From Gammaproteobacteria bacterium (lineage in GTDB: Bacteria > Pseudomonadota > Gammaproteobacteria > Eutrophobiales > Eutrophobiaceae): 64,000 nt of DNA. Position 1 is the first letter of the stretch. Every line of letters starts with the position of its first letter. The notes below the pieces were generated by a model. The model searched no databases. It saw only the letters and a list, made by a program, of their open reading frames with translations, and had not been told where the DNA came from. Position numbers and translations under genes: made by a program. Positions 5,242-40,901 of the stretch are shown piece by piece. The DNA lies in assembly GCA_965240365.1 (NCBI GenBank), contig OZ251218.1:2254356-2318355 (forward strand), in the 5' to 3' direction.

Positions 5242-6291
5242 TCAGTGGACGATGACGAGGAGTTTTGTGAGTCTGGTGACGGACAGTCCGTTGGTGGCGG
5301 CCAGGGCGTCCAGTCCGGCGTCGATCGAGGCAATCGACAGCCGCGCGGTGACGGGTTCGAGGTTGCCGGTGTTGCTCAGCAGCATGATGCGGCCGGGCCG
5401 GTAGCGGTCGATCTCCAACAGGGCGGCGGTCAGTGGCATGTTTATGATCGAGATATAGCCCTGCCGCCAGGCCATAACGGCGGCCGCATTGACCCGCCGC
5501 ACGGGCCCCGGCGGCGCGCCGGTCTGGTAGCGCACCTGTTCGCCGGGCTTGAGCACGGCGGCGCCGGCCTTTGGCGGCGCGTTCTCTGCCCCGGCCGGCG
5601 AGCTTACCCCGACTGTCCCTTCACTCACCGTCACCACAGCCCCGCCGCCGTCGTCCCGCACCGAGAAGATCGTGCCGAGGGCGGTTGAGCGCCCGGCGCG
5701 GGCCATGACCGCAAAGGGGCGGGCCTTGTCTTCAGCGACCTCAAACCGGGCCTCGCCCCGCAACAGCGAGATTTGTCGGCGGTCTTTTGAGTATTGCACC
5801 GAGAGGGCGCTGCCGGTGTTGAGCCAGACGATCGAGCCGTCCGGCAGCTTGATTTGCGCCTGCTCGCCGATGCCGGTGTAGTAGTCGGCCGTGAGCCTGA
5901 GCGCCATGTTCGGCGCTGTCAGCAGGAGAAACAGGGCGCAGGCGGCCGCGAGGCCGCCCCACAAGAACGGCCGGCGGCGCGGGCCGAAGCCGGTTTTCGC
6001 GGCCGGGCGGGAGGGTGTTTCATCTGATCGCCGCGGCGCAATGTCCGGGCGGGCCTGCTCCGGCGGCAGAAAGGCGTCTTGCAGTTCGCCGAGTTCGTCC
6101 CAAAGCGCCTGTAGTTCGGCATAGGCGGCCTGATGGCGCGGGTCAGCCTGCCGCCAGTCTTCAAAACGCGCCCGCTCGGTCTCTGTCGGCGCGCCGGTGG
6201 TGATAAGCAGGAACCATTCCCGGGCGGCCTCGTCGATGGCGGCGCGGTCGTCCCGTGGCCTTGATTTTTCAGGATCGCTGGGCTCGTTCAT
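5242..6291 (-). CDS. fecR: FecR-family anti-sigma factor / iron signal transducer
   Basis: N-terminal REWFLLITTG...RFEDWRQADPRHQAAYAEL motif typical of FecR, single TM, periplasmic FecR domain; sits between an ECF sigma gene and a TonB-dependent transducer. Confidence 0.8.
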   Translation of the reverse strand: MNEPSDPEKSRPRDDRAAIDEAAREWFLLITTGAPTETERARFEDWRQADPRHQAAYAELQALWDELGELQDAFLPPEQARPDIAPRRSDETPSRPAAKTGFGPRRRPFLWGGLAAACALFLLLTAPNMALRLTADYYTGIGEQAQIKLPDGSIVWLNTGSALSVQYSKDRRQISLLRGEARFEVAEDKARPFAVMARAGRSTALGTIFSVRDDGGGAVVTVSEGTVGVSSPAGAENAPPKAGAAVLKPGEQVRYQTGAPPGPVRRVNAAAVMAWRQGYISIINMPLTAALLEIDRYRPGRIMLLSNTGNLEPVTARLSIASIDAGLDALAATNGLSVTRLTKLLVIVH

Positions 6292-6368
6292 GGTGAGGGT
6301 CTATAGCCTTTGGGCAAAGCGCGCGGGCAGCCGCGCGCCGGCTATATTGGCCCTAAAGACCAGCGGTA

Positions 6369-6923
6369 TCAATCGGGTTCAGATTCCTGGCCGGCTGATT
6401 CGCGGTCGTCCGGCGCCGGATCGTGAAATTGGCGGCGGGCCTCAAGCAGGGCTGACATGACCGCTTTCATGTCTTTGTAGATGGTGGTTATGCCGATACC
6501 GAGTTGGGCGGCGATCTCGGCCTGGGATTTGCCTTCATAGCGGGTGAGGTAGAAGATCTGGCGACCGCGGGGGCTGAGCCGCTCAATTTCCACCCTGAGG
6601 CAGTCAAATTCGGCCCGCGCCAGGGCATGGCGTTCCGGGGTCAGTTCGTTGGCCTGCGGCCAGACCACGGCCTGCGCCTCCTCCAGGATTTCGCCGCGCC
6701 GCTTTTCGACCCGGATATGGTCGGTGGCGAGGTTCGCGGCCATGCTGAAGAGATAGGCGCGGTGGTCGCGTATGGGCGGACATTCTTTTATGCTGCGCAG
6801 CTTGAGGTAGAGATCCTGAACGAGGTCGGCGGCAAGGCTGGGCGAGTCGAGGCGCTTGCTCAGAAACCGCAGCAATTCGAGCTTGTGCTCCAGGTAGGTC
6901 TGCATTAATACCGAATGCGACAT
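6369..6923 (-). CDS. fecI: ECF sigma-70 factor (FecI-like)
   Basis: Region 2 (DLVQDLYLKL) and region 4 HTH (SQAEIAAQLGIGITTIYKDM) signatures; 184 aa. Confidence 0.85.
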   Translation of the reverse strand: MSHSVLMQTYLEHKLELLRFLSKRLDSPSLAADLVQDLYLKLRSIKECPPIRDHRAYLFSMAANLATDHIRVEKRRGEILEEAQAVVWPQANELTPERHALARAEFDCLRVEIERLSPRGRQIFYLTRYEGKSQAEIAAQLGIGITTIYKDMKAVMSALLEARRQFHDPAPDDRESAGQESEPD

Positions 6924-29745: not shown

Positions 29746-31041
<1,296 letters not shown>

Positions 31042-31090
31042 GACGCGGGCTGATATTCTGGCGCGGATTGTTGCCGGGGGACACAAATTC

Positions 31091-32911
31091 ATGGGGAGTC
31101 TGCTCAAATTTCGCGGTTTTACGGCCTACATCATCGTCGTATTCCTGAATGCCTTTGTTGACCTGGGGCATAAAATCGTCATCCAGAACACGGTCTTCAA
31201 AATCTATGAAGGCCAGACCCAGATCATACTGACCGCGATAGTCAACGCGCTGATCCTGCTGCCGTTCATCCTGCTGATTTCGCCGGCCGGCTATTGCTCC
31301 GATAAATATCCGAAAACCAGGGTAATACGCATCAGCGCCTGGGTCGCCGTGCTGGTCTCATTGTGCATTACCCTGTTTTACTATCTGGGCTGGTTTTGGG
31401 CGGCCTTTCTGATGACCTTCATGCTGGCCCTGCAAAGCGCGTTCTATTCCCCCTCCAAATATGGTTTTATCAAGGAAATGGTGGGCAAAAATAATCTGGC
31501 GCGGGCCAATGGCCTAGTGCAGGCCATCACCACCATCGCCATCCTGGCCGGTATTTTTGTCTTTTCAATCGCATTCGAACAATTTCTGATCGACCAGCCA
31601 TTTAGCGATACCGGATCGCTATTAAAGCGCATCGCCCCCATCGGCTGGGGGCTGGTCCTGTTCAGCCTGATCGAACTGGCCCTGGCCTGCACATTGACCG
31701 ACCGGCATCCGCCTGATGAAACCATGCAATTCGATTTCCGGGCCTACCGCCACGGCGAATATCTAAAGCGCAACATGCAAGCCGTGCTGCGGCATGAGGT
31801 GATCTTTCTGTCGATCATGGGGCTCGCCATCTTCTGGTCAATCTCGCAAGTGATGCTGGCCGCCTTCCCCAGCTATGCCGAGGAAACGCTGGGCATCGGT
31901 AATACGGTGATTGTGCAGGGCGCCATGGCCTGCGCCGGCTTCGGCATCATGCTGGGCTCCGTGATCTGCGGGCGGCTCTCCCGCAGCCATATTGAAACCG
32001 GCATGATTCCGCTGGGCCTGGTGGGTATCGCCTTGTGTTTATTTATTCTGCCCTATCTTGACAATGCCTATCTGCACGCCGCCAACTTCCTGATCTGGGG
32101 CCTGTTCGGCGGCCTTTTGATCATTCCGCTCAATGCGCTGATTCAGTTTCATGCCGGCCAGAATGAATCCGGCCGTGTGCTGGCCGGCAACAACTTCCTG
32201 CAAAACTGCATGATGCTGAGCTTTCTCGGTTTAACGGTTGTGTTTGCCTTATATGGCATTGACAGCCTGGGCCTGTTTAGCATCCTGCTGCTGGTTGCCG
32301 GCGTCGCCACCCTCTACCTCGCTTATAAACTGCCGCAATCACTGCTGCGCCTTATTGTCGGCGTTATCAGCGGGCAGCGTTACCGCCTGCGGGTGCTGGG
32401 GCTTGAAAACATGCCGGAGACCGGCGCCGTCTGGCTGCTTGGCGAACAGCGCAACGGGGTCGATTGCGCGATACTCCAAATGGCCTCGCCCCGCCCGATT
32501 CGTTTTGTCGTGCCGGGCGATATCCATAAACGCCGCGCCCTCGGCTGGTTCGCCGACCTGTTCAAGGCCATCCCGGCCGGCTTCGGCGAAGAAGCATTAG
32601 GGGCCATCAACAAAGCCCTGCATCATGGCGATATGGTCTGTTTATTCGCGCGGGCAACCGCGAGCCAGAGCGGCCGCCTGGCTGAATTCCAGCAACACGG
32701 CCCAAAGGCCGGCGGCAATCCCGCCGCCGTCATCCTGCCATTCTACCTGCACGATCCGGGCAAACGGCCCGCGCGACTTGGCCAAAGGCAGGACATCATC
32801 GTGGCCTTTGGCCGGCCGCTTCCGATTGACGCCAAACCCCATATTTTAGACAGGGGCCTGCTCGATCTTTTGCTTGCCGCCCGGGAATATGATAAGGAAG
32901 CGCTTCCATAA
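31091..32911 (+). CDS. MFS transporter fused to a C-terminal acyltransferase-like domain (LplT/Aas-type lysophospholipid transporter-acyltransferase architecture)
   Basis: 12 predicted TM helices then a PlsC-like fold (VLGLENMPETGAVWLLGEQRNGVDCAIL...) with the usual H of HX4D replaced by Q; ATG at 31091 with GGGGGA RBS. ORF-track start at 30827 overlaps purA. Confidence 0.65.
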   Translation: MGSLLKFRGFTAYIIVVFLNAFVDLGHKIVIQNTVFKIYEGQTQIILTAIVNALILLPFILLISPAGYCSDKYPKTRVIRISAWVAVLVSLCITLFYYLGWFWAAFLMTFMLALQSAFYSPSKYGFIKEMVGKNNLARANGLVQAITTIAILAGIFVFSIAFEQFLIDQPFSDTGSLLKRIAPIGWGLVLFSLIELALACTLTDRHPPDETMQFDFRAYRHGEYLKRNMQAVLRHEVIFLSIMGLAIFWSISQVMLAAFPSYAEETLGIGNTVIVQGAMACAGFGIMLGSVICGRLSRSHIETGMIPLGLVGIALCLFILPYLDNAYLHAANFLIWGLFGGLLIIPLNALIQFHAGQNESGRVLAGNNFLQNCMMLSFLGLTVVFALYGIDSLGLFSILLLVAGVATLYLAYKLPQSLLRLIVGVISGQRYRLRVLGLENMPETGAVWLLGEQRNGVDCAILQMASPRPIRFVVPGDIHKRRALGWFADLFKAIPAGFGEEALGAINKALHHGDMVCLFARATASQSGRLAEFQQHGPKAGGNPAAVILPFYLHDPGKRPARLGQRQDIIVAFGRPLPIDAKPHILDRGLLDLLLAAREYDKEALP

Positions 32912-33003
32912 CGGCAGTTGATTCACCCCGCCCGCAGAGCCAATTTCAGGAACGGCGGCCTGCGCGGGAAACGGATTACCCGGCGAGGCGTACGCCGCCG
33001 CCC

Positions 33004-33546
33004 TCACTCGGCCAGGCCCGTATCAAGGCCGTCAATGCTTTTACTGTTCTTGTCATGCTGATATTCGGCAATGCCCGCGGCCCCCTTCCCCTCGGCCCAG
33101 CGTTGCAGGGTAGCGCGTTCCCGCGCGGGCCCCATCTGCGGCACGCCAAAGCCGCAACTGGTTTGCACCGACTCAATGTCGATAAAGATAATCTGGCGGA
33201 CACCGGCCAGCCGGGGGAAACGGCCCAGATTCGTCTCAAAATCCGAAGCGCCGGGTCGGGCCACCGATCCGTGCCCGTAAAGCCGCACGATCAGCGGTTT
33301 TTGCGTGAAGCTGTTAAACATGATCGTTATGCGTCCATCCGCCTTGATATGAGCCGCGGTCTCATTGCCGCTGCCCGTGATATCCAGATAGGCGCAGCGC
33401 GCGGGGTTCAACACGCGAAACGTATCCATGCCCTTGGGCGACAGATTGATACGCCCGCCGGGCGCGGCCGTGGCGACAAAGAACATGGGTTGCTCGCCGA
33501 TAAACGCGGTCAATTTATCCGACAACTGATCATAAAAATCCGCCAT
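33004..33546 (-). CDS. Pyridoxamine 5'-phosphate oxidase-like FMN-binding split-barrel protein
   Basis: MFFVATAAPGGRINLSPKG and length (180 aa) typical of the PNPOx-like family. Confidence 0.6.
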   Translation of the reverse strand: MADFYDQLSDKLTAFIGEQPMFFVATAAPGGRINLSPKGMDTFRVLNPARCAYLDITGSGNETAAHIKADGRITIMFNSFTQKPLIVRLYGHGSVARPGASDFETNLGRFPRLAGVRQIIFIDIESVQTSCGFGVPQMGPARERATLQRWAEGKGAAGIAEYQHDKNSKSIDGLDTGLAE

Positions 33547-33639
33547 TGTGAATCCTCCTGTTCAACTCGCTCATGCGACAGATAAGAAAGCATAAACACT
33601 CTGCCGGCTTCGGGCAAGCCCGTGCCCGGGTTCAATACT

Positions 33640-34110
33640 TGTGAGATAAATCAGGGCTGCCTGCTGCCAGTAGGCGCCTTGCCAGCCGGAACAGTGTGTT
33701 TGGTTGTCATTCCCGCTTTCGCCGGACGGCTACGGGCATCCTCGGCAGCTTGTTCCTGACACTGCTCTACCACCTACGTCCTGTAGGCGTGCCCTCCCTG
33801 CCTGCTGCAGGCAGGTCGCCGCATACAGGACTTCCTGTCCATAAATGACGGTAGGGGCGGAATGTCCAAGTTCAACAACATACAAGACAAATCAGGGAGG
33901 TAGGGAATCCGTAGAACTGCCTGCAACAAGCAGGTTAGCGCAGATTATGTGTTGTTCTGTTTGGCCTGTTGCTGACGGGCGGGAATGATGGAAAGTGAAT
34001 TTCAGCTACGTCGTCATTCCGGCGAAAGCCGGAATCCAGGACAGTAGGGCCGGAGAGTGAAATAGATTACGATTCTGTCTGCCTGCCTGCTGCCAACAGG
34101 CTACAGGCAG
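33640..34110. repeat. Palindromic repeat cluster
   Basis: ctgcctgctgccagtaggc, gtcattcccgctttcgccggacgg, ctgcctgctgcaggcagg, ccataaatgacggtaggggcgg, cgtcattccggcgaaagccggaatccag modules. Confidence 0.6.
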
Positions 34111-34116
34111 GCAAGA

Positions 34117-34287
34117 CGCTCACGCACCTGCTCGGGCGTGACGGCGCGGGATGGATCGGCTTTCAGCGCGTCATAAGCCGGACCGACCTGGTTATGAAGC
34201 CAGGCTTCCACGGCGCGATCACGCGCAAGCAGCGCCCGCAGACCATCGCGGATGACTTCGCTCTCGCTCGCATACTCTCCTGTTGCC
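34117..34287 (-). pseudogene. ParD-family antitoxin remnant (C-terminal ~56 aa only)
   Basis: Minus-strand translation GEYASESEVIRDGLRALLARDRAVEAWLHNQVGPAYDALKADPSRAVTPEQVRERL matches the ParD consensus (GRYGSASEVIRAGLRLLE...); in-frame TAG right upstream, no start, no parE partner. Confidence 0.5.
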
Positions 34288-34441
34288 TATTTTAGCCAGA
34301 ATTTACATGCATGCAAAGCCCCTCCTGTAGCAGGCGGGTCGGAATAACAACGAATATTTCATTAGTTTTGCGGTTATTCTTGCTATATGTATGAACCCGT
34401 ACTATAATTTCTAAATAACGACTAAATACATAGGAGCACGA

Positions 34442-34711
34442 ATGACTGACTTACTTGCAACTGAAAAGACCTATCTAGCTGATCACCAATCCGAACTTGT
34501 GCAGAAACACCCCGGCAAATTCCTGTTGATAAAGGGAAAAGCCGTACATGGCGCTTTCCAGACTTACGAACAGGGTGTGATCGAGGGAACGGCGCGGTTC
34601 GGCGCCGGCCCCTTCCTGGTTCGCGATGTCTCTGCCACTTCTGATCCCGAAGCCCCGAACATACCGGCCTTGTCCATTGGGCTGCCGTTCACCCGCCTTG
34701 CCGATAATTAA
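34442..34711 (+). CDS. Small conserved protein (89 aa) that precedes a retropepsin-like protease; family not confidently assigned
   Basis: Substitutions against the partial duplicate at 35811-36037 are almost all synonymous in this frame, supporting protein coding. Confidence 0.6.
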   Translation: MTDLLATEKTYLADHQSELVQKHPGKFLLIKGKAVHGAFQTYEQGVIEGTARFGAGPFLVRDVSATSDPEAPNIPALSIGLPFTRLADN

Positions 34712-34728
34712 CCCGAAAGTCCAGGCCC
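34501..34728. repeat. Copy 1 of a 228-bp direct duplication (second copy at 35811-36037)
   Basis: About 94% identity; one 1-nt indel at the left edge; copy 1 lies within the small-protein gene. Confidence 0.9.
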
Positions 34729-34754
34729 AAATCCTGGACGCAAAGGGCAAAAAA

Positions 34755-35183
34755 GTGCCGCTTACCGGCAGGGCGGGCCTCCGGGATGCCGGCCCCAAAA
34801 TTAAGCTCGCGCTATCATCGTTGGAATCACAACTGCAGACCCTTGCTGATCGCGGTAAAACACCGCCCGCCCCGGTGGCCGGCTGGGGCATCATCGACAC
34901 GGGCGCCTGTGTCACCTGCGTGGATGAAACTGCGGCACGCAATGCTGGCCTGGCAACCGTGGATACGGGGCCGATTGCCTCGGCCACCCACGACAATCAC
35001 ACGGTACCCATCTTCGCCGGCCAACTTGATGTGGCCGGCATTCCTCAGAACATCAATATCTATCGTGCCTACGGCGTGAACTTGGAAGCTCAAGGACTTA
35101 TCGCGCTGATAGGGCGTGATGTGCTCGCCAACTGCATTCTGGTGTACAACGGTCTGGACGGATCGTTTTCGCTCGCGTTGTAA
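34755..35183 (+). CDS. Retropepsin-like (clan AA) aspartic protease
   Basis: GIIDTGACVTCVDETAARNAGL contains the D-T-G-A catalytic motif with the hydrophobic-hydrophobic-D-T-G-A context of retropepsins; about 140 aa. ORF track gives 34626-35183, but the overlapped 5' part reads better in the upstream gene's frame, so a GTG at 34755 is proposed; start uncertain. Confidence 0.55.
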   Translation: MPLTGRAGLRDAGPKIKLALSSLESQLQTLADRGKTPPAPVAGWGIIDTGACVTCVDETAARNAGLATVDTGPIASATHDNHTVPIFAGQLDVAGIPQNINIYRAYGVNLEAQGLIALIGRDVLANCILVYNGLDGSFSLAL

Positions 35184-35324
35184 CTTCCACGCCGCCGTGC
35201 TGGCGACTTTTGGCTTGTCGGATTGTGTACGTAGCGGATGACCTGCCTACTACGGACTAAAGAAGGCCGTGATCCGATTTCGGTCCATGTCCGCCGGGAA
35301 TAAAGTACGGCTTGTGCGGGCGGA

Positions 35325-35594
35325 CTAAAATTCGGACGCTATTGCCATATCGTAATTAGTCTGCATATTCATCCAGTAGGCCAGAGTGGTATTGAAGGCG
35401 CGGGCAAGCCGCAGGGCGGTGTCCGGCGTCATGCCGGTCGCTCCCTTGACAAGCCGCTCAATCCGCGTGCGCGGCACACCCAGGCGGCGGGCAAGGGCAA
35501 TGGCCCCCATATCCAGGGGCACAAGGTAAAGTTCTTGCAGAACTTCGCCGGGGTGCATGGGGGCTTTGAGCAGGCTCATGGACTTAATCCTCAT
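35325..35594 (-). CDS. higA: HigA antitoxin (XRE-family HTH)
   Basis: MHPGEVLQELYLVPLDMGAIALARRLGVPRTRIERLVKGATGMTPDTALRLARAF is the canonical HigA HTH; ATGA start/stop overlap with higB. Confidence 0.85.
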   Translation of the reverse strand: MRIKSMSLLKAPMHPGEVLQELYLVPLDMGAIALARRLGVPRTRIERLVKGATGMTPDTALRLARAFNTTLAYWMNMQTNYDMAIASEF

Positions 35595-35860
35595 CAGTGG
35601 TAATCGCTAATCTCAACATCAGCGGGGCCGTTCGGCGTCCAGACAAGGCAAATATGCCATTGGCGATTGATCCGCACGGCATGTTGCCCGGCCCGGTCGC
35701 CTTTCAGTGCTTCCAGCCGGTTACCCGGCGGAAGGCGTAAATCCTCCACGACAACCGCGGTATCCAGGGCCGTGAGCAGCGCCCGCGCGCGCTTTCTGCC
35801 TTGATATACCGCAGAAGCACCCCCGGCAAATTCCTGCTGATCAAGGGAAAAGCCGTACAT
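35594..35860 (-). CDS. higB: HigB toxin (RelE/ParE superfamily) with a chimeric N-terminus
   Basis: C-terminal LKGDRAGQHAVRINRQWHICLVWTPNGPADVEISDYH matches HigB. The first 13 codons (MYGFSLDQQEFAG) are encoded antisense to copy 2 of the 228-bp duplication. Confidence 0.65.
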   Translation of the reverse strand: MYGFSLDQQEFAGGASAVYQGRKRARALLTALDTAVVVEDLRLPPGNRLEALKGDRAGQHAVRINRQWHICLVWTPNGPADVEISDYH

Positions 35861-36037
35861 GGCGCTTTCCAGACTTACGAGCAGGGCGTGATCGAGGGAA
35901 CGGCGCGGTTCGGCGCCGGCCCCTTCCTGGTTCGCGATGCCTCTGCCACTTCTGACCCCGAAGCCCCGAACATCCCGGCCCTGTCCATTGGGCTGCCGTT
36001 CGCTCGCCTTGCCGATAATTAACCCGAAAGTCCAGGC
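35811..36037. repeat. Copy 2 of the 228-bp direct duplication; carries a 5'-truncated paralogue of the 34442-34711 gene (ORF 35801-36022)
   Basis: Alignment to 34501-34728; the reading frame is preserved with only synonymous changes. Confidence 0.9.
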
Positions 36038-36056
36038 TCCGGCCTTTGCGAACAGG

Positions 36057-36362
36057 CTAAGATGCGGATGCGGCTTTTGCGGCCTTGATGAGGTCTGCTG
36101 TGCGCAAGGGTTCGGGTACGTATTCAAGCGCATCCCCGTCCTGTGTAACCGCCGCCCGGCACATCTTCACGGTGCGCAGGGGTTTGGGCATAAATTTCAA
36201 CTTCACGTCTGTTGCAAAAAATACGAGGATTGCGATGCCCCCTAAGATCAGGAGAACCGTTGGATATCCTTTTACTACCAAATTAAAGATTGATAGATAG
36301 ATCAAGTATCCTATGATTCCGTAAAATATCAGCAAGATGAATCTGGAACTTCCTATAGACAT
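36057..36362 (-). CDS. Small 2-TM membrane protein encoded at the 3' edge of the low-GC island. The reading frame runs on into flanking high-GC DNA, which resembles a DUF4116-repeat fragment
   Basis: N-terminal 60 aa (two TM helices) is AT-rich; C-terminal AVTQDGDALEYVPEPLRTADLIKAAKAASAS is GC-rich and DUF4116-like; 37 bp downstream of the 742-aa gene on the same strand. Confidence 0.4.
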   Translation of the reverse strand: MSIGSSRFILLIFYGIIGYLIYLSIFNLVVKGYPTVLLILGGIAILVFFATDVKLKFMPKPLRTVKMCRAAVTQDGDALEYVPEPLRTADLIKAAKAASAS

Positions 36363-36399
36363 AGCGATCTTTTCTATTTTTAGTTAATTTGGTACAAGG

Positions 36400-38628
36400 C
36401 TAATTTTCTTCATATTGCTTCTGGAAATCTGACTGAAGTTGTGTAGAAGCTTCTGCAAGCAACACTTTGGCTCGCGAATCATCAATTTCATCATATACTT
36501 CTTTGGCTTTTGAAATTATCTTTTTGAAGGCATCTTCATCCATCCTATTACCGAGTTTTACTCCAAGCATAGAAGGAAAGATTTTGTCGTAACTACTTTG
36601 GACAGACTTTGCAGAAGGAATTGATGCAAGATAATGGATCAGAAACTCAGGCCGCATCATATATCGCGCGCCCTCTTTCGATACTAAGCTTCTAGTAGCA
36701 CTTTGAACTCTCGTTTGCTGTGTTAACCACCACGTTTTGAATCCATAAGGGTTTCCACCACTGCGTTCACTATCGACTCTACGTTTTTGAAATATGCGCA
36801 GTATAGTTAAAGCAGCGTTTCTTGATAAGATTTCTTCGCTCGCGTTATCTCTATCAATTCTATTGCGGTTATTTTTAATGTCGGATGTAAGCTGATTTAG
36901 ATCGGTTTTATTTACACCTGACAACATTTCAGCTTCGTTTTCATAGTAGAAACCGAACTCGTTTATTAGATACTCTCTTAATTCATCTCGTGAGGATGGT
37001 TTAGTAATCCTGTTTACTGTGAGAAACTTACCTAAGTAGGTTTGCCATCCAGATAGTGAATTGTTCTTAGATACTGGCTTAAGTTTGGCATAAAAGTAGG
37101 CACGTATTAAAATGCGATCAATATGGCTAGCAAGCGTTAAGTCGATATAATTTTGAATATTTTCATAATTGTTTACAAACTCAAAGTGAGTTATTTTGAG
37201 ATGATTCCACACTTCGTCGAGCGTTTTCTCCGTTAGAGCTAGTTTCGATCCAGCCGTTTTGAGAAGCTTTAAAGTATTTTTGGTCTTCTGATCTTCTTTC
37301 ACGAGCATTTGCTCTGACAATGCCTCTACAATCAAGTCAGCACCAATGTAGAGATTAAAGTTTGAGGTCATTCTTCTAAAATATTCCAAGATCCGAGGTT
37401 CATTTTTCAGCATGAAAAGAAGAATATATGTTCGGGATAACTTACGAAAGTAGCGTCTCTCTACTTCCGAACTGTTATAGTAAGCACCTCGTAAAATACT
37501 TGAACAGGTCTGGAAAATGAGTTCGGCATTTTTACCGACAAGTCCTTGATCTTCAATTTCTCGGCCCAGAAAATCTTTGATTAAAGGAAGATCGCTATCA
37601 CTTCCTTCTGCACGCTCTAGGAAAAGCACGATCTCAAGCCCTTGAGCGTGAAATGATCGATGTATAACATTATGACAGATTTCGACGCACTGTTCGATTA
37701 TTTTTGTGTTATTTGTCGCCAAGGACGTATTCTGAGCTGCTCGATTGCGAAAGATATTACTAACGTCTTGCTTTAGCGCTTCGTCCTTAACATTTTCATC
37801 GTGGATCATCTTTCTAGTTTCATAAGGCAAGCAATATCCCTTCTCTTTTCGATGATAGTTAACTTTCCGTCCGCCGTTTCCTTTGGTAGTTAGTGCATTA
37901 ATTCTATGCTTGACAATACCTCTAAAGAAAGTTTTAGCGGATGGTAGCGTCTCAATTACGCGCGTTTCAATATTGGAAAGCGATAGAAATTTACCCTTAT
38001 CAGGATCTGTTCCTTCAAGCGACCAAAGAATTAAACTATCAGTCACTGTTTCAAGAAGTTCAGTTTTCCCGCGCTGGCACTCAAGTTCCTGCCCAAGGAA
38101 CACAAAAAGTGTTTTTGCTGGAAGGCCTTGGATAGTGTTGGGCACATACCCTGTGCCGATGCCTTCCAGAAAAGAAGCTGCATCAGCAACGTATGTTTTG
38201 TAGGCTTGTAGTGCACCCGGAGTGTTGTTGATATGAGATTGGAAGTAATATCCATCTCGAATAACAATTCGACAGTCTAGTTCATCGCTAAGTTCATCCT
38301 GAATTTTATCTATCAGAGTTAGCTTTTGGTTAGTAGCGTAGATCAAACTCTTTGGATCGCGATCAAATTCTCTAAGTCGTTTTAGAGTTTTGCGAATCTT
38401 TGTCTTAGGTTCTACTGTAACGGATGCTTGCATGAACTTTTGAGTGCCACCTGCTTCGAAAATGCGATCATCTATCACCCCGTCAGCACCACCATCATGA
38501 AAACCTCCCATAGGCACATAGTCGACACCAATAGAAGACGCAAAGAACTCTTGTGCGAACTTTTCGAAATTGACTCCTTCCACTTTCGACAACGCAATTT
38601 CAATTACTCTTGTATCGACAATATCCAC
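36400..38628 (-). CDS. Uncharacterised 742-aa protein with N-terminal Mrr-type restriction-endonuclease-like (PD-(D/E)xK) domain and a long alpha-helical C-terminal region
   Basis: FEKFAQEFF...GVDYVPMGGFHDGGADGVIDD...FMQASVTV...SLIYATNQKLT follows the Mrr_cat pattern (FE..l.....G.....DgGiDg....vQcK....ilvTt); no P-loop; region GC about 40% against 62% background. Confidence 0.75.
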   Translation of the reverse strand: MDIVDTRVIEIALSKVEGVNFEKFAQEFFASSIGVDYVPMGGFHDGGADGVIDDRIFEAGGTQKFMQASVTVEPKTKIRKTLKRLREFDRDPKSLIYATNQKLTLIDKIQDELSDELDCRIVIRDGYYFQSHINNTPGALQAYKTYVADAASFLEGIGTGYVPNTIQGLPAKTLFVFLGQELECQRGKTELLETVTDSLILWSLEGTDPDKGKFLSLSNIETRVIETLPSAKTFFRGIVKHRINALTTKGNGGRKVNYHRKEKGYCLPYETRKMIHDENVKDEALKQDVSNIFRNRAAQNTSLATNNTKIIEQCVEICHNVIHRSFHAQGLEIVLFLERAEGSDSDLPLIKDFLGREIEDQGLVGKNAELIFQTCSSILRGAYYNSSEVERRYFRKLSRTYILLFMLKNEPRILEYFRRMTSNFNLYIGADLIVEALSEQMLVKEDQKTKNTLKLLKTAGSKLALTEKTLDEVWNHLKITHFEFVNNYENIQNYIDLTLASHIDRILIRAYFYAKLKPVSKNNSLSGWQTYLGKFLTVNRITKPSSRDELREYLINEFGFYYENEAEMLSGVNKTDLNQLTSDIKNNRNRIDRDNASEEILSRNAALTILRIFQKRRVDSERSGGNPYGFKTWWLTQQTRVQSATRSLVSKEGARYMMRPEFLIHYLASIPSAKSVQSSYDKIFPSMLGVKLGNRMDEDAFKKIISKAKEVYDEIDDSRAKVLLAEASTQLQSDFQKQYEEN

Positions 38629-38749
38629 TCAGTGATCTCTAATTAAGATAGCGATAGTTTTATGATAACATCACATATCGCCAACGTTGTCAATAAAAGA
38701 ATGATCTGAAGTTCTCTCATTTTTTGCCCTAGAGATAAAACTAAAACAA

Positions 38750-38905
38750 TACTCCATCGTCATTTATGGACAGAGGTGAAGTGAAATATTCGTTGTCATT
38801 CCGGCCTGTCTGCCGCAGGCAGGCGAAAGCCGGAATCCAGAAGGCGGCGCCAAGGTGGTGTATGGACTCCCGCCCGTGCCTGACTGCGGCAGGCAGGAAA
38901 CCCTG
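38750..38905. repeat. Palindromic repeat cluster at the right border of the low-GC island
   Basis: tcgtcatttatggacagaggtg, gtcattccggcctgtctgccgcaggcaggcgaaagccggaatccag, ctgactgcggcaggcagg. Confidence 0.6.
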
Positions 38906-38912
38906 GTCGATT

Positions 38913-39725
38913 TTATTTCAAATTCAGCACATCCCGCATGTCGAACAGTCCCCTGTCCTTGCCGGCCAGCCATTTTGCGGCCTTGAGCGCGCCGTTGGCG
39001 AAGGTTTTTCTGGAAGACGCCTTGTGTGTTATTTCGACACGTTCGCCGTCCGCGGCAAACAGGACCGTGTGTTCGCCAACCATATCGCCCGCGCGGATGG
39101 TTTGAAAGCCGATGCTGCCGGGCTTTCTTTCTCCGCTTCCGGCCCGGTTATACTCGGCGCATTCGCTTAAATCGCGCCCCAGCGCCGCGGCCACCACTTC
39201 GCCCATGCGCAGGGCCGTGCCCGAGGGCGCGTCTTTTTTGTGGCGATGGTGCGCTTCGATGATCTCGATGTCGGTGTCGGCGCCGATTGCCCTGGCCGTC
39301 ATCTCCAGCAGTTTGAGGCAGAGGTTGACGCCGATGCTCATGTTCGGCGCATAAACGATGGCGATCTGGTCCGCGGCGGTCTCCAGCAGTTTATGGTCTT
39401 CCCGGCCGAGGCCGGTCGTGCCGATGACCATTTTTGTATTGGTGGCCACACACTTCTGAATATTGGCCGCAAATCCGGCGGCCAGGCTGAAATCAATCAG
39501 CACATCGACATTATCAGCGGCATTATCACCCAGCGCAGCAACACCCGTGACCGGCACGCCGAGCCTGCCTGTCCCGGCCAGTTCACCGGCGTCTCGCCCC
39601 GCCGCGGGTGATTTGTCGTGTTCAATCGCGGCGGTGACTTTAACGCCTTCTGTCTCGTGACAAAGCGCCAGGATGGTTCTGCCCATCCGGCCGGCCGCGC
39701 CGCATACTCCAATTTTGAGTGTCAT
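38913..39725 (-). CDS. dapB: 4-hydroxy-tetrahydrodipicolinate reductase
   Basis: [18 protein letters not shown](P) motif, [15 protein letters not shown] active-site region, 270 aa. Confidence 0.9.
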
Positions 39726-39759
39726 TTGTCTGTTTCCTCTCGCGCTACGAACAGCAAGG

Positions 39760-40901
39760 CTAACCGGTCATGGATTCAAAGAATTTTTTGACGCCGTCCA
39801 GCCATGAACTCGCCTGCGGGCTGTGCCGGGCGCCGCTTGATTGCATGGTTTCATCAAATTGCCGCAGCAATTCTTTTTGTTTGTGATTGAGTTTAACCGG
39901 CGTCTCGACCACGACCCGGCAGAGCAGATCGCCTTTGGCCGAGTTGCGCACCGAGCGCACGCCTTTGGCGCGCAGGCGAAACATCTTGCCGCTCTGGGTT
40001 TCGGGCGGTATTTTCAGTTTCACCTTGCCGTTGAGCGTGGGCACTTCGAGTTCGCCGCCGAGCGCGGCCGCGACAAAGCTGATCGGCACATCGCAGTGCA
40101 GATCAGTCCCCTCGCGCGCGAAGATAGGGTGCGGCTTGACGTTGATATGCACATACAGATCGCCGGCCGGGCCGTTATTTTCCCCGGCCTCGCCCTCGCC
40201 CGAGAGCCGGATGCGGTCGCCGTTATCCACGCCCTCCGGCACCTTGACGGAGATGGTCTTGCTGTCCTGCACCCGGCCCTGGCCCTGGCATGAGGCGCAC
40301 GGGTCGCTGATAATCCTGCCCTGCCCGCGGCATTGCGGACAGGTTTGCTGCACCGAGAAAAAGCCCTGTTGCATACGCACCTGCCCATGCCCGTCGCAAG
40401 TCGGACAATTGGCGGGCGCGCTGGATTTGCCGGCCCCTGATCCGCGGCAACTGGCGCAGGCCGTCATCCTGGGGATGCGGATCTTGACGGTGGTCCCCGC
40501 GACCGCGTCTTCCAGCGAAAGCTCCAGGTTGTACGCAGGTCCGCGCCGCGGTAAACCCGGCTGCCGCCGCGGCCGCCACCGCCAAAGATGTCACCGAAGA
40601 CGCTGTCAAAGATATCGCCCAGCCCCGCGCCCTGGCCAAAGCCGCCCTGCCCCGCGCCAACGCCGGCGCCGGCATCGACCCCGGCATGGCCGAATTGATC
40701 ATAAGCGGCGCGCTTTTTTGCGTCGGAAAGCACATCGTAGGCCTCTTTGGCCTCCTTGAATCTTTCCTCGGCCCCGGCGTCGCCCTCGTTGCGATCAGGA
40801 TGGTATTTCATGGCCAGCCGCCGGTACGCCTTTTTGAGGCCGGCCTCGTCGGTGTTTTTTGAAACACCGAGCACTTCGTAATAGTCTCGTTTATTTGCCA
40901 T
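39760..40901 (-). pseudogene. dnaJ: Chaperone DnaJ with an apparent 1-nt deletion frameshift (or sequencing error) near 40533
   Basis: J-domain and G/F region in ORF 40464-40901; Zn-finger CxxCxGxG repeats and C-terminal domain in ORF 39760-40467 in the +1 frame. Conserved [13 protein letters not shown] is split: observed gacctgcgtacaacctggag, expected cgt tac aac. Confidence 0.85.

What the first reader, a model, noticed from the sequence alone, without database searches (positions are those of the whole stretch)
34442..35183. Small conserved protein plus retropepsin-like aspartic protease cassette
A bacterial clan-AA (retroviral-type) protease with an intact hydrophobic-hydrophobic-D-T-G-A active site follows an 89-aa protein whose 3' end overlaps the protease ORF in another frame (a gag-pro-like layout). 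Comparison of the two copies of the 228-bp duplication shows the small gene's frame is the selected one through the overlap: 3 of 5 substitutions are synonymous in that frame against 1 of 5 in the protease frame. The protease must therefore start downstream (GTG about 34755) or by recoding. The pair sits in a toxin-antitoxin / defence neighbourhood, so it may be a toxin-like or defence cassette rather than housekeeping.
Basis: partly seen in the sequence, partly recalled or inferred. Interest (0 to 1): 0.7.

Follow-up and report, generated by a model that had tools for sequence, protein, structure and literature searches.

The report
Small partner protein plus retropepsin-like protease
This is an uncharacterised, horizontally spread two-gene operon in which a small DUF5678-like protein with a conserved floppy tail is always encoded just ahead of, and slightly overlapping, a cytoplasmic HIV-protease-like enzyme; it is real and conserved, but it does not use retrovirus-style recoding.

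Summary

The long "gag-pro-like" overlap is an ORF artefact. Homologues are 160-161 aa and begin MPIL(N/H). This places the start at TTG 34698, 14 nt before the small gene's stop. Neither GTG 34755 nor recoding is needed.

In 64 of 67 non-redundant loci the small gene lies directly upstream. These loci come from more than 10 bacterial phyla, one archaeon and 20 IMG/VR contigs. In the 39 loci measured, the two genes overlap by 10-47 nt. No third gene is conserved.

The small protein is a distant DUF5678 relative. It has a folded core and a disordered but nearly invariant tail, (I/V)-P-A-L-x-(L/I/V)-G. Natural fusions of DUF5678, protease and a transmembrane helix exist (72 clusters).

My best reading, which is inferred, is a mobile toxin-antitoxin-like protease/regulator pair. 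The tail would dock in the protease cleft as inhibitor or pseudo-substrate. No toxicity or defence evidence exists.

The 227-bp duplicate is the remnant of a second copy of the module.

The parts
34380..34408 (+). Sigma-70-like promoter (TTGCTA, 17-nt spacer, TATAAT) upstream of the small gene. An AGGAG ribosome-binding site lies 6 nt before ATG 34442.
   Evidence: 10 of 12 consensus matches; sequence read. This is a consensus match only and has not been shown to be functional.
34442..34711 (+). Small gene, 89 aa, a distant DUF5678-like protein. It has a folded core (residues 1-62, helix-helix-strand-strand-helix-strand) and a disordered conserved tail (residues 63-89).
   Evidence: A profile search finds 2310 cluster representatives. 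Distant members and fusions hit PF18929.
34661..34681 (+). Codons for the tail motif I-P-A-L-S-I-G (residues 74-80). P75, L77 and G80 are at least 90% conserved across 80 diverse family representatives. In many homologues the Gly codon also forms part of an SD-like element for the protease gene.
   Evidence: sequence.
34698..35183 (+). Retropepsin-like aspartic protease gene, 161 aa, starting at TTG and overlapping the small gene by 14 nt. It has no signal peptide or transmembrane segment. An N-terminal extension of about 55 aa precedes a retropepsin core of about 105 aa.
34896..34907 (+). Catalytic D-T-G-A, preceded by I-I.
   Evidence: Sequence. D67 and G69 are invariant, and T68 and A70 are at least 90% conserved, in 46 homologues.
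35106..35120 (+). L-I-G-R-D, the second retropepsin signature (hydrophobic-hydrophobic-G-R-D/N).
   Evidence: Sequence. L137, G139, R140 and D141 are invariant.
35190..35215 (+). Terminator-like hairpin followed by a T-rich tail, just after the protease stop codon.
   Evidence: pattern match only.
35811..36037 (+). Remnant of a second copy of the module. It covers small-gene codons about 21-89 plus the first 10 codons of the protease gene, at 95% identity. It is fused antisense to a 5'-truncated higB.
   Evidence: The same remnant occurs in relatives L001 and L080.

Best explanation
The region is a self-contained bicistronic operon: promoter near 34380-34408, small gene 34442-34711, protease gene 34698-35183, and a terminator-like hairpin near 35190.

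The first product is an 89-aa DUF5678-like protein. The second is a 161-aa cytoplasmic retropepsin-like aspartic protease. Its translation starts at a weak TTG codon 11 nt upstream of the small gene's stop codon, so the two genes are translationally coupled and the small protein is made in at least equal amounts.

Inferred mechanism: the small protein is the protease's dedicated partner. Its conserved, intrinsically disordered hydrophobic tail (…E-A-P-N-I-P-A-L-S-I-G…) docks as an extended strand in the substrate cleft of the protease dimer. There it holds the protease in check as an inhibitor or pseudo-substrate.

The pair would behave as a mobile, dispensable module of toxin-antitoxin or abortive-infection type. 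Its protease would act on cellular or phage proteins once the partner is lost or displaced.

Shown: gene structure, start site, fold, catalytic motifs, obligate pairing, fusions, patchy distribution.

Inferred: physical interaction through the tail, inhibition, and any toxicity or defence role.
For: Start site and coupling:
- Homologues are 160-161 aa and begin MPIL(N/H), aligned to TTG 34698.
- A start codon sits at profile position 1 in 39 of 40 loci: 14 TTG, 13 ATG, 12 GTG.
- The gene overlap is 10-47 nt in all 39 loci where it could be measured (L042 lacks an upstream small gene), and never a gap.
- The public gene call for this genome is identical.

Protease identity:
- IIDTGA and LIGRD are present and invariant across the family.
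- The AF2 model has pLDDT 92.3.
- 43 of 46 homologues hit PF13975/PF13650.

Functional link:
- The small gene lies directly upstream in 64 of 67 non-redundant loci from many phyla and from IMG/VR contigs.
- No third gene is conserved.
- Natural fusions of a DUF5678-like domain (one or two copies), a retropepsin domain and a C-terminal transmembrane helix occur in 72 protein clusters.

Tail as the interaction element:
- The tail is predicted disordered, with pLDDT below 50 for residues 67-89.
- Yet P75, L77 and G80 are at least 90% conserved in 80 diverse representatives.
- Remote subfamilies carry different tails (x-F-[IF]-[ST]-R-[DHF]; T-L-P-A-S-V-L-F) together with different protease N-termini.

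Mobile and dispensable character:
- The distribution is patchy: Binatia, Acidobacteriota, Proteobacteria, Chloroflexota, Nitrospirales, Verrucomicrobiota, Ignavibacteria, a Thermoplasmata archaeon and Paceibacterota.
- Flanks vary and include integrases, GmrSD with a type I restriction-modification system, and metabolic genes.
- Decayed copies exist: L029, L044 and window copy B.
- In this lineage the module sits in a variable hotspot between PNPOx and dapB that also carries ParD-like, HigBA and Fic genes.

Precedent (established knowledge): yeast IA3 is a small, disordered cytoplasmic inhibitor that folds into the cleft of aspartic proteinase A. The complex 1dp5 appears.
Against: - There is no evidence of toxicity, inhibition or defence.
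- Neither protein hits any PADLOC model or any PHROG.
- tblastn finds nothing in 72,556 plasmids or 50,697 phage genomes.
- L042 keeps an intact protease (DTGA, LIGRD) while only a 30-codon tail-bearing ORF of the small gene survives. This is awkward for a strict 'antitoxin is essential' model.
- Many homologues sit among ordinary metabolic genes.
- Conservation of the tail's Gly codon may partly reflect an SD-like element for the protease gene.
- The complex could not be modelled with the tools available.
Confidence: 0.42

Rival explanations
1. Substrate or maturation model. The small protein, or in the fused forms the DUF5678 domain, is the protease's dedicated substrate. The conserved tail is a cleavage site (for example between I/Y and P, or after L in P-A-L|S). 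Processing would release or activate the DUF5678 core or a C-terminal peptide. This would be a functional analogue of Gag processing, but without recoding.
For: - The tail is hydrophobic, extended and conserved, as retropepsin cleavage sites are. Some relatives have Y-P at the equivalent position (K-Y-P-A-L). From established knowledge, this resembles the Tyr/Phe-Pro sites of retroviral proteases.
- Fused DUF5678-protease polypeptides exist. This is the arrangement in which retroviral and Rickettsia APRc proteases autoprocess (PMC4140852, listed).
- Coupled translation would supply the substrate in excess.
Against: - The residue before the Pro is mostly beta-branched (I or V). By established knowledge this is disfavoured at P1 by retroviral proteases.
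- No downstream function for a processed product is evident.
- No modification or export genes are conserved nearby.
Confidence: 0.25
2. Adaptor or activator model. The small protein is a structural subunit that promotes folding or dimerisation of the protease, or that delivers specific substrates to it, rather than restraining it.
For: - Pairing is obligate and fusions exist.
- The tail could add a strand to the N/C-terminal dimer-interface sheet of the retropepsin fold.
- L042 retains the tail-encoding mini-ORF together with an intact protease.
Against: - Nothing indicates a substrate-binding surface.
- The sporadic distribution, the decayed copies and the presence on viral contigs fit a selfish or accessory module better than a housekeeping protease complex.
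Confidence: 0.15
3. Gag-pro-like recoding. A programmed frameshift near the end of the small gene produces a fusion of the small protein and the protease.
For: - The two frames overlap in every one of the 39 loci where the overlap could be measured.
- Natural in-frame fusions of the same two domains exist elsewhere.
- In the window, the protease frame is open for 24 codons upstream of the TTG.
Against: - The protease is in the +1 frame, not the -1 frame of retroviral gag-pro.
- No conserved slippery sequence is present. The codons before the stop differ among loci (GAT AAT TAA here, GAT CCT TAA elsewhere).
- A start codon is conserved exactly at the N-terminal Met position in 39 of 40 loci, and 26 of 40 loci have an in-frame stop no more than 5 codons upstream.
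- Many loci have an SD-like element 9-14 nt upstream of that start.
Confidence: 0.03
4. Unrelated neighbours or annotation artefact. The two ORFs are adjacent by chance, or one of them is not a real gene.
For: Neither window protein reaches a curated family threshold by itself.
Against: - Both proteins have dozens to thousands of homologues with conserved motifs.
- They are paired in 64 of 67 loci.
- Fusions exist.
- Synonymous substitutions are in excess in the small-gene frame.
Confidence: 0.02

Closest known systems
Retroviral proteases (HIV-1, EIAV, RSV; MEROPS family A2, Pfam PF00077 RVP)
   Same: - The hydrophobic-hydrophobic-D-T-G-A motif and the G-R-D signature are present.
- The core is about 100 residues, which implies a homodimeric active site.
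   Different: - Sequence identity is only 15-17%.
- The protein is free-standing with its own start codon, not cut out of a polyprotein, and no frameshift is involved.
- It carries an N-terminal extension of about 55 aa.
- It is encoded in bacteria, archaea and phage-like contigs, next to a DUF5678-like gene.
APRc / ApRick, the retropepsin-like protease of Rickettsia conorii (PMC4140852; PDB 5c9b, 5c9f)
   Different: - APRc is a membrane-embedded, autoprocessing, surface-exposed protein of an obligate intracellular pathogen, and no dedicated small partner gene has been described for it.
- The protease here is soluble, has no transmembrane segment, and is always paired with the small gene.
Pseudomonas retropepsin-like enzymes RloA-C (PMC12239564; PDB 9g59) and RimB (PMC11957791), both DUF785-type
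   Different: - They belong to a different sequence family.
- Per the abstracts listed, RloA-C are secreted/periplasmic stress-tolerance enzymes, and RimB works in the RimABK ribosome-modification complex.
- Neither is paired with DUF5678.
Pfam PF18929 (DUF5678), a family of unknown function
   Same: - Distant members of the small-protein family, and the N-terminal domains of the fused proteins, score above the DUF5678 gathering threshold: 36.2, 31.6 and 25.0 bits against 23.2.
- 11 of 80 family representatives hit it at E<=0.01.
   Different: - The window protein itself gives no hit, even at E<=1.
- The Pfam model covers only the 49-residue core, not the N-terminal helices or the conserved tail.
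- No prokaryotic study of DUF5678 was found.
Type II toxin-antitoxin modules (for example HigBA next door)
   Same: - Two small, co-directional, overlapping genes, with the smaller one first.
- The first product has a disordered C-terminal region.
- The distribution is patchy and horizontally transferred, with decayed copies and location in a TA-rich hotspot.
   Different: - No known TA toxin is an aspartic protease.
- The small protein has no RHH, HTH, AbrB or Phd DNA-binding fold.
- There is no match in PADLOC.
- Toxicity is untested.
IA3, the inhibitor of yeast proteinase A (PDB 1dp5)
   Same: It is a small cytoplasmic protein that is intrinsically disordered when free. By established knowledge it inhibits a cognate aspartic protease by occupying its active-site cleft. 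It serves here as a mechanistic precedent.
   Different: - The sequences are unrelated.
- IA3 is eukaryotic and targets a two-lobed pepsin-type enzyme.
- It binds as a helix. Binding here is only hypothesised.

Membership tests
Retropepsin-like aspartic proteases (clan AA; PF13975, PF13650, PF00077) | Catalytic motif hydrophobic-hydrophobic-Asp-Thr/Ser-Gly-Ala | tested here: met
   I-I-D-T-G-A lies at 34890-34907. D and G are invariant, and T and A are at least 90% conserved, in 46 homologues.
Retropepsin-like aspartic proteases (clan AA; PF13975, PF13650, PF00077) | Second signature hydrophobic-hydrophobic-Gly-Arg-Asp/Asn near the C-terminus | tested here: met
   L-I-G-R-D lies at 35106-35120. 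L137, G139, R140 and D141 are invariant.
Retropepsin-like aspartic proteases (clan AA; PF13975, PF13650, PF00077) | Retropepsin fold (single-lobe acid-protease beta-barrel of about 100 residues) | tested here: met
   [not shown]
Retropepsin-like aspartic proteases (clan AA; PF13975, PF13650, PF00077) | Profile score above Pfam's gathering threshold | tested here: inconclusive
   The window protein scores 20.3 bits (E 8.6e-4) against a cut-off of 28.2 for PF13975. 43 of 46 homologues hit PF13975/PF13650 at E<=0.01, best 3.5e-8. The family profile hits HIV-1 and HTLV-1 proteases in the PDB at E 2e-4 to 5e-3.
Retropepsin-like aspartic proteases (clan AA; PF13975, PF13650, PF00077) | Homodimerisation and pepstatin-sensitive proteolytic activity | not testable with these tools
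   This requires biochemistry.
DUF5678 (PF18929) | Match to the Pfam profile above the gathering threshold | tested here: inconclusive
   The window protein gives no hit at E<=1. 11 of 80 representatives of its family hit at E<=0.01. Fused and tandem relatives exceed the 23.2-bit cut-off. The relationship therefore rests on transitive homology.
Type II toxin-antitoxin module | Two adjacent co-directional small genes forming one operon, often overlapping | tested here: met
   The overlap is 14 nt here and 10-47 nt in the 39 loci measured. A promoter-like and a terminator-like site flank the pair.
Type II toxin-antitoxin module | Antitoxin with a DNA-binding domain (RHH, HTH, AbrB or Phd) that autoregulates the operon | tested here: not met
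   [not shown]
Type II toxin-antitoxin module | Toxin arrests growth and is neutralised by direct binding of the antitoxin | not testable with these tools
   This requires expression and rescue experiments.
Type II toxin-antitoxin module | Match to catalogued TA or defence protein models | tested here: not met
   Neither protein hits PADLOC at E<=1.
Retroviral gag-pro programmed frameshift | Downstream ORF in the -1 frame, lacking its own start, with a slippery heptamer and a stimulatory structure | tested here: not met
   The frame is +1. A start codon is conserved in 39 of 40 loci. No conserved slippery site is present. In-frame stops lie no more than 5 codons upstream in 26 of 40 loci.

The most novel reading that the evidence does not exclude
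The DUF5678/retropepsin pair would be a new class of protease-based toxin-antitoxin or abortive-infection module. A cytoplasmic retropepsin-like protease, an effector type unknown among TA and defence systems, would be kept silent by the pseudo-substrate tail of its partner. It would be released to cleave host or phage proteins when the partner is degraded or titrated, for example by a phage protein. The fused, membrane-anchored forms in phage-like genomes would be a counter-adapted or co-opted version.
Probability: 0.25. Interest if true: 0.75.

Novelty: new variant of a known kind. Interest (0 to 1): 0.5.

Why it matters
Only a few bacterial retropepsin-like proteases have been studied (APRc, RloA-C, RimB), and all have different contexts.

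This analysis defines a family of cytoplasmic retropepsin-like proteases that is always coupled to a DUF5678-like partner. The protease search returned 55 clusters. The partner family has about 2300 cluster representatives at 50% identity.

That gives DUF5678, a domain of unknown function, its first concrete functional association. It also offers a simple two-protein system for studying how a retropepsin is regulated by a dedicated partner.

If the inhibitor/toxin reading holds, it would add aspartic proteases to the repertoire of TA and defence effectors.

The analysis also corrects the gene model. The protease starts at a TTG and overlaps the small gene by 14 nt. This matters for annotation, because gene callers variously produce 142-, 161- or 185-aa proteins.

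Tried and rejected
- **GTG 34755 as start.** Rejected. The 19 residues upstream (MPIINPKVQAQILDAKGKK) align with the conserved N-terminus of the family. The 142-aa call for P0001 is a gene-caller choice on a 1x-coverage contig that still carries the TTG and the LPIINPKVQ sequence.
- **ATG 34626 as start (185 aa).** Rejected. The extension is not conserved, and most homologues have a stop within 5 codons upstream of the start.
- **Programmed frameshift.** Rejected; see the rival explanations.
- **RiPP-like precursor plus leader peptidase.** Rejected. No modification or export gene is conserved.
- **Known defence or TA catalogue membership.** PADLOC gave nothing.
- **Phage families.** PHROGs gave nothing for either protein or for the fusion.
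- **Plasmid or phage carriage in curated genomes.** tblastn gave nothing.
- **Literature.** Searches for DUF5678, PF18929, and retropepsin combined with toxin-antitoxin or defence found no prokaryotic study of this pair.
- **Rfam.** No RNA family was found in 30000-40000.
- **Modelling of the complex.** Not possible with the tools.
- **Organism identification.** Failed. The window comes from an unnamed 3.66-Mb contig.

Full report
**1. What is in the sequence**

On the + strand there is an 89-aa ORF (34442-34711), preceded by AGGAG. A mechanical ORF of 185 aa (34626-35183) follows in the +1 frame.

The second ORF contains G-I-I-D-T-G-A (34887-34907) and L-I-G-R-D (35106-35120). These are the two sequence signatures of retropepsins.

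A direct repeat is present: 34510-34726 vs 35821-36037, 95% identical. It extends to about 227 nt with one 1-nt indel.

I recounted the substitutions.
- Ten substitutions fall in the ungapped repeat. Seven are synonymous in the small-gene frame (binomial P about 0.004-0.01).
- Six fall within the ORF overlap. Three are synonymous in the small-gene frame and two in the protease frame.

The observation therefore holds in substance, but the numbers differ and the test is weak.

**2. The real gene structure**

A search of 5.8 billion proteins gave 55 protease homologues. Most are 160-161 aa and cover 87% of the 185-aa query.

In the alignment they all begin M-P-I-L-(N/H), opposite L-P-I-I-N in the window. 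That position is the TTG codon at 34698.

I scanned the species-representative genomes of GTDB (41 loci). I added contigs found by exact look-up and IMG/VR (20 loci). I then located both genes with profile HMMs.
- In 39 of 40 loci with a full-length match, an ATG, GTG or TTG sits exactly at profile position 1 (14 TTG, 13 ATG, 12 GTG).
- The small gene's stop lies 10-47 nt downstream of that start in all 39 loci where it could be measured. The overlap is 14 nt in 16 loci and 26 nt in 9.
- In 26 of 40 loci an in-frame stop lies no more than 5 codons upstream.

The public gene call for this very genome is the 161-aa TTG-start protein (P0249).

The protease therefore starts at 34698 and overlaps the small gene by 14 nt. 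GTG 34755 would remove 19 conserved residues, and recoding is unnecessary.

The frame relationship is +1 and there is no conserved slippery sequence. Both facts argue against a gag-pro-type frameshift.

Many homologues have an SD-like AGGAG or GGGA 9-14 nt upstream of the start, built from the invariant Gly codon of the small protein's tail. The window has only a distant GGG. The weak TTG start and the lack of an SD imply that the protease is made by translational coupling and at lower levels than the small protein. This last step is an inference.

A promoter-like site (34380-34408) and a terminator-like hairpin (35190-35205) bracket the pair.

**3. What the proteins are**

*Protease.*
- The window sequence is sub-threshold for PF13975 (20.3 bits against 28.2). 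However, 43 of 46 homologues hit PF13975/PF13650, with a best E-value of 3.5e-8.
- The family profile finds HIV-1 and HTLV-1 proteases, Ddi1 and ApRick in the PDB.
- The AF2 model is confident (pLDDT 92.3).
- The retropepsin core spans roughly residues 58-161. Residues 1-55 form a conserved extension.
- There is no signal peptide or transmembrane segment, as read directly from the sequence.

*Small protein.*
- It has no direct Pfam, NCBIfam, PADLOC or PHROG hit and no PDB sequence match.
- AF2 predicts a helix-helix-strand-strand-helix-strand core (residues 1-62, pLDDT about 85) and a disordered tail (residues 67-89 below 50).
- A profile search of 1.84 billion cluster representatives finds 2310 relatives.
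- Among these, tandem two-domain proteins and fused proteins hit PF18929 (DUF5678) above threshold. 11 of 80 single-domain representatives hit it at E<=0.01.
- The small protein is therefore a divergent DUF5678-type protein.
- Across 80 diverse representatives the predicted-disordered tail carries the most conserved motif, (I/V)-P-A-L-x-(L/I/V)-G, with P75, L77 and G80 at least 90% conserved.

**4. Evidence that the two work together**

- The small gene is directly upstream on the same strand in 64 of 67 non-redundant loci. The three exceptions are a 5'-truncated protease (L029), a contig end (L069), and L042. In L042 only a 30-codon tail-bearing ORF survives next to an intact protease.
- All-against-all comparison of flanking ORFs finds no third conserved gene.
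- Fusions exist. 72 protein clusters carry one or two DUF5678-like domains, a retropepsin domain (DTGAS…LLGRD) and a C-terminal hydrophobic helix.
- One such fusion lies in 195-236 kb contigs of co-directional unknown genes, next to a PHROG virion structural protein.
- Remote subfamilies combine different tails with different protease N-termini. This is covariation at the family level.

**5. Distribution and context**

The pair occurs sporadically in MAGs of many phyla, and in 20 IMG/VR contigs. The phyla include:
- Binatia, Acidobacteriota, Gamma- and Alphaproteobacteria, Chloroflexota, Nitrospirales;
- Armatimonadota, Ignavibacteria, Verrucomicrobiota, Gemmatimonadota, Paceibacterota;
- one Thermoplasmata archaeon.

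It was not found in curated plasmid or phage genomes.

Flanking genes vary: integrases, GmrSD with a type I restriction-modification system, TonB-type receptors, and plain metabolism.

In this lineage the pair lies in a variable segment between PNPOx (33004-33546) and dapB (38913-39725). Three related strains, roughly 92-98% identical across the shared blocks, share the pair, higA and a chimeric higB. They differ downstream. The window and L001 have a low-GC 742-aa gene, whereas L080 has a Fic-containing cassette.

The 227-bp copy B covers small-gene codons about 21-89 plus 10 protease codons. It is present in all three strains. It is best read as the remnant of a second, once-functional module. 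This would explain why its 5% divergence is mostly synonymous in the small-gene frame.

**6. Mechanism**

*Shown:* a bicistronic, overlapping operon; a catalytically intact retropepsin-fold protease; an obligate DUF5678-like partner with a conserved disordered tail; domain fusions; a mobile and dispensable character.

*Inferred (confidence about 0.4):* the tail binds in the substrate cleft of the protease dimer and restrains it, giving a TA-like protease/regulator module. IA3 and proteinase A provide a mechanistic precedent, from established knowledge.

*Rivals:*
- The tail is a genuine cleavage site and the small protein is the substrate (0.25).
- The small protein is an adaptor or assembly factor (0.15).
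- Recoded fusion (0.03).
- Chance adjacency (0.02).

*Against the TA reading:* there is no DNA-binding fold, no catalogue hit, an orphan intact protease in L042, and many non-defence contexts.

**7. Comparison with known systems and novelty**

The protease is a member of the retropepsin-like superfamily. Motifs and fold are met, while the curated score threshold is not met by this sequence alone.

It is not APRc-like, because it is not a membrane protein, and it is not of the DUF785 RloA/RimB type.

The small protein is a peripheral DUF5678 relative.

I found no paper on DUF5678 in prokaryotes or on any retropepsin/partner module. The only loosely related note is that small retropepsin-domain proteins associate with type III CRISPR loci in Sulfolobales (PMC3973734).

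I rate the finding as a new variant of a known kind. It is a solid, conserved, uncharacterised module of moderate interest (0.5). The retrovirus-like recoding idea is not supported.

Noticed in passing
window 35325-36133 (- strand); L080 3571-4103: higA (35325-35594, HTH_3) is followed by a higB whose 5' end is replaced by the antisense of the duplicated small-gene fragment. Only about 75 C-terminal residues are HigB-derived (Pfam match to profile positions 28-82 of 91). The same chimera, with a different junction, occurs in relative L080, where it is called as an 87-aa HigB-like protein. Whether the chimeric toxin is active is unknown.
   Followed up: partly
window 34107-34283 (- strand); L001 7464-7742: This is a remnant of a ParD/RHH-type antitoxin gene. 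The relative L001 has the intact 92-aa gene. The window has lost 176 bp of its 5' part. No partner toxin gene is present in either strain.
   Followed up: partly
window 33657-34107, 38805-38896 and about 15 further sites: A REP-like palindrome, CTGCCTGC(T/A)GCAGGCAGG, gives 34 strand-matches at about 17 sites in the window, against 0.12 expected. Copies cluster at both edges of the variable island. A 450-bp insertion rich in these palindromes (33657-34107) is absent from relative L001.
   Followed up: partly
window 36057-38628 (- strand): A low-GC segment (38-45% against about 57% elsewhere) carries a 742-aa gene with no Pfam hit. Its N-terminus matches a PADLOC REase-TIR-type model only weakly (PDLC02416, E 1.4e-4). 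A 101-aa hydrophobic ORF is also present. In relative L080 this segment is replaced by a Fic-domain cassette. The interval between PNPOx and dapB therefore looks like an integration hotspot.
   Followed up: partly
L077/L078 4001-4870 (P0254); P0101, P0105, P0277: Natural fusions of one or two DUF5678-like domains, a retropepsin domain and a C-terminal transmembrane helix occur in 72 clusters. P0254 lies in 195-236 kb contigs of co-directional unknown genes, beside phrog_1383 (virion structural protein) and phrog_2087. This suggests a large phage.
   Followed up: partly
L042 about 5900-6489 (Candidatus Porisulfidus MAG): The protease is intact (DTGA, LIGRD), but the upstream small gene is reduced to a 30-codon ORF. 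That ORF still encodes a tail-like sequence (…T-I-P-N-I-S-K-P-P-L-G-G-P-F-V-A-N-S) and an AGGAGG before the TTG start. It could be a tail-only partner, gene decay, or an assembly error.
   Followed up: partly
P0136, P0143, P0152, P0167, P0174, P0187, P0205: These are free-standing proteins made of two tandem DUF5678-like domains (160-230 aa). Their genomic partners were not examined.
   Followed up: no
window 34475-34996 (- strand): A 173-aa antisense ORF lies across both genes. Similar antisense ORFs recur in homologous loci. They look like GC-rich shadow ORFs of the conserved sense genes, not genes.
   Followed up: partly
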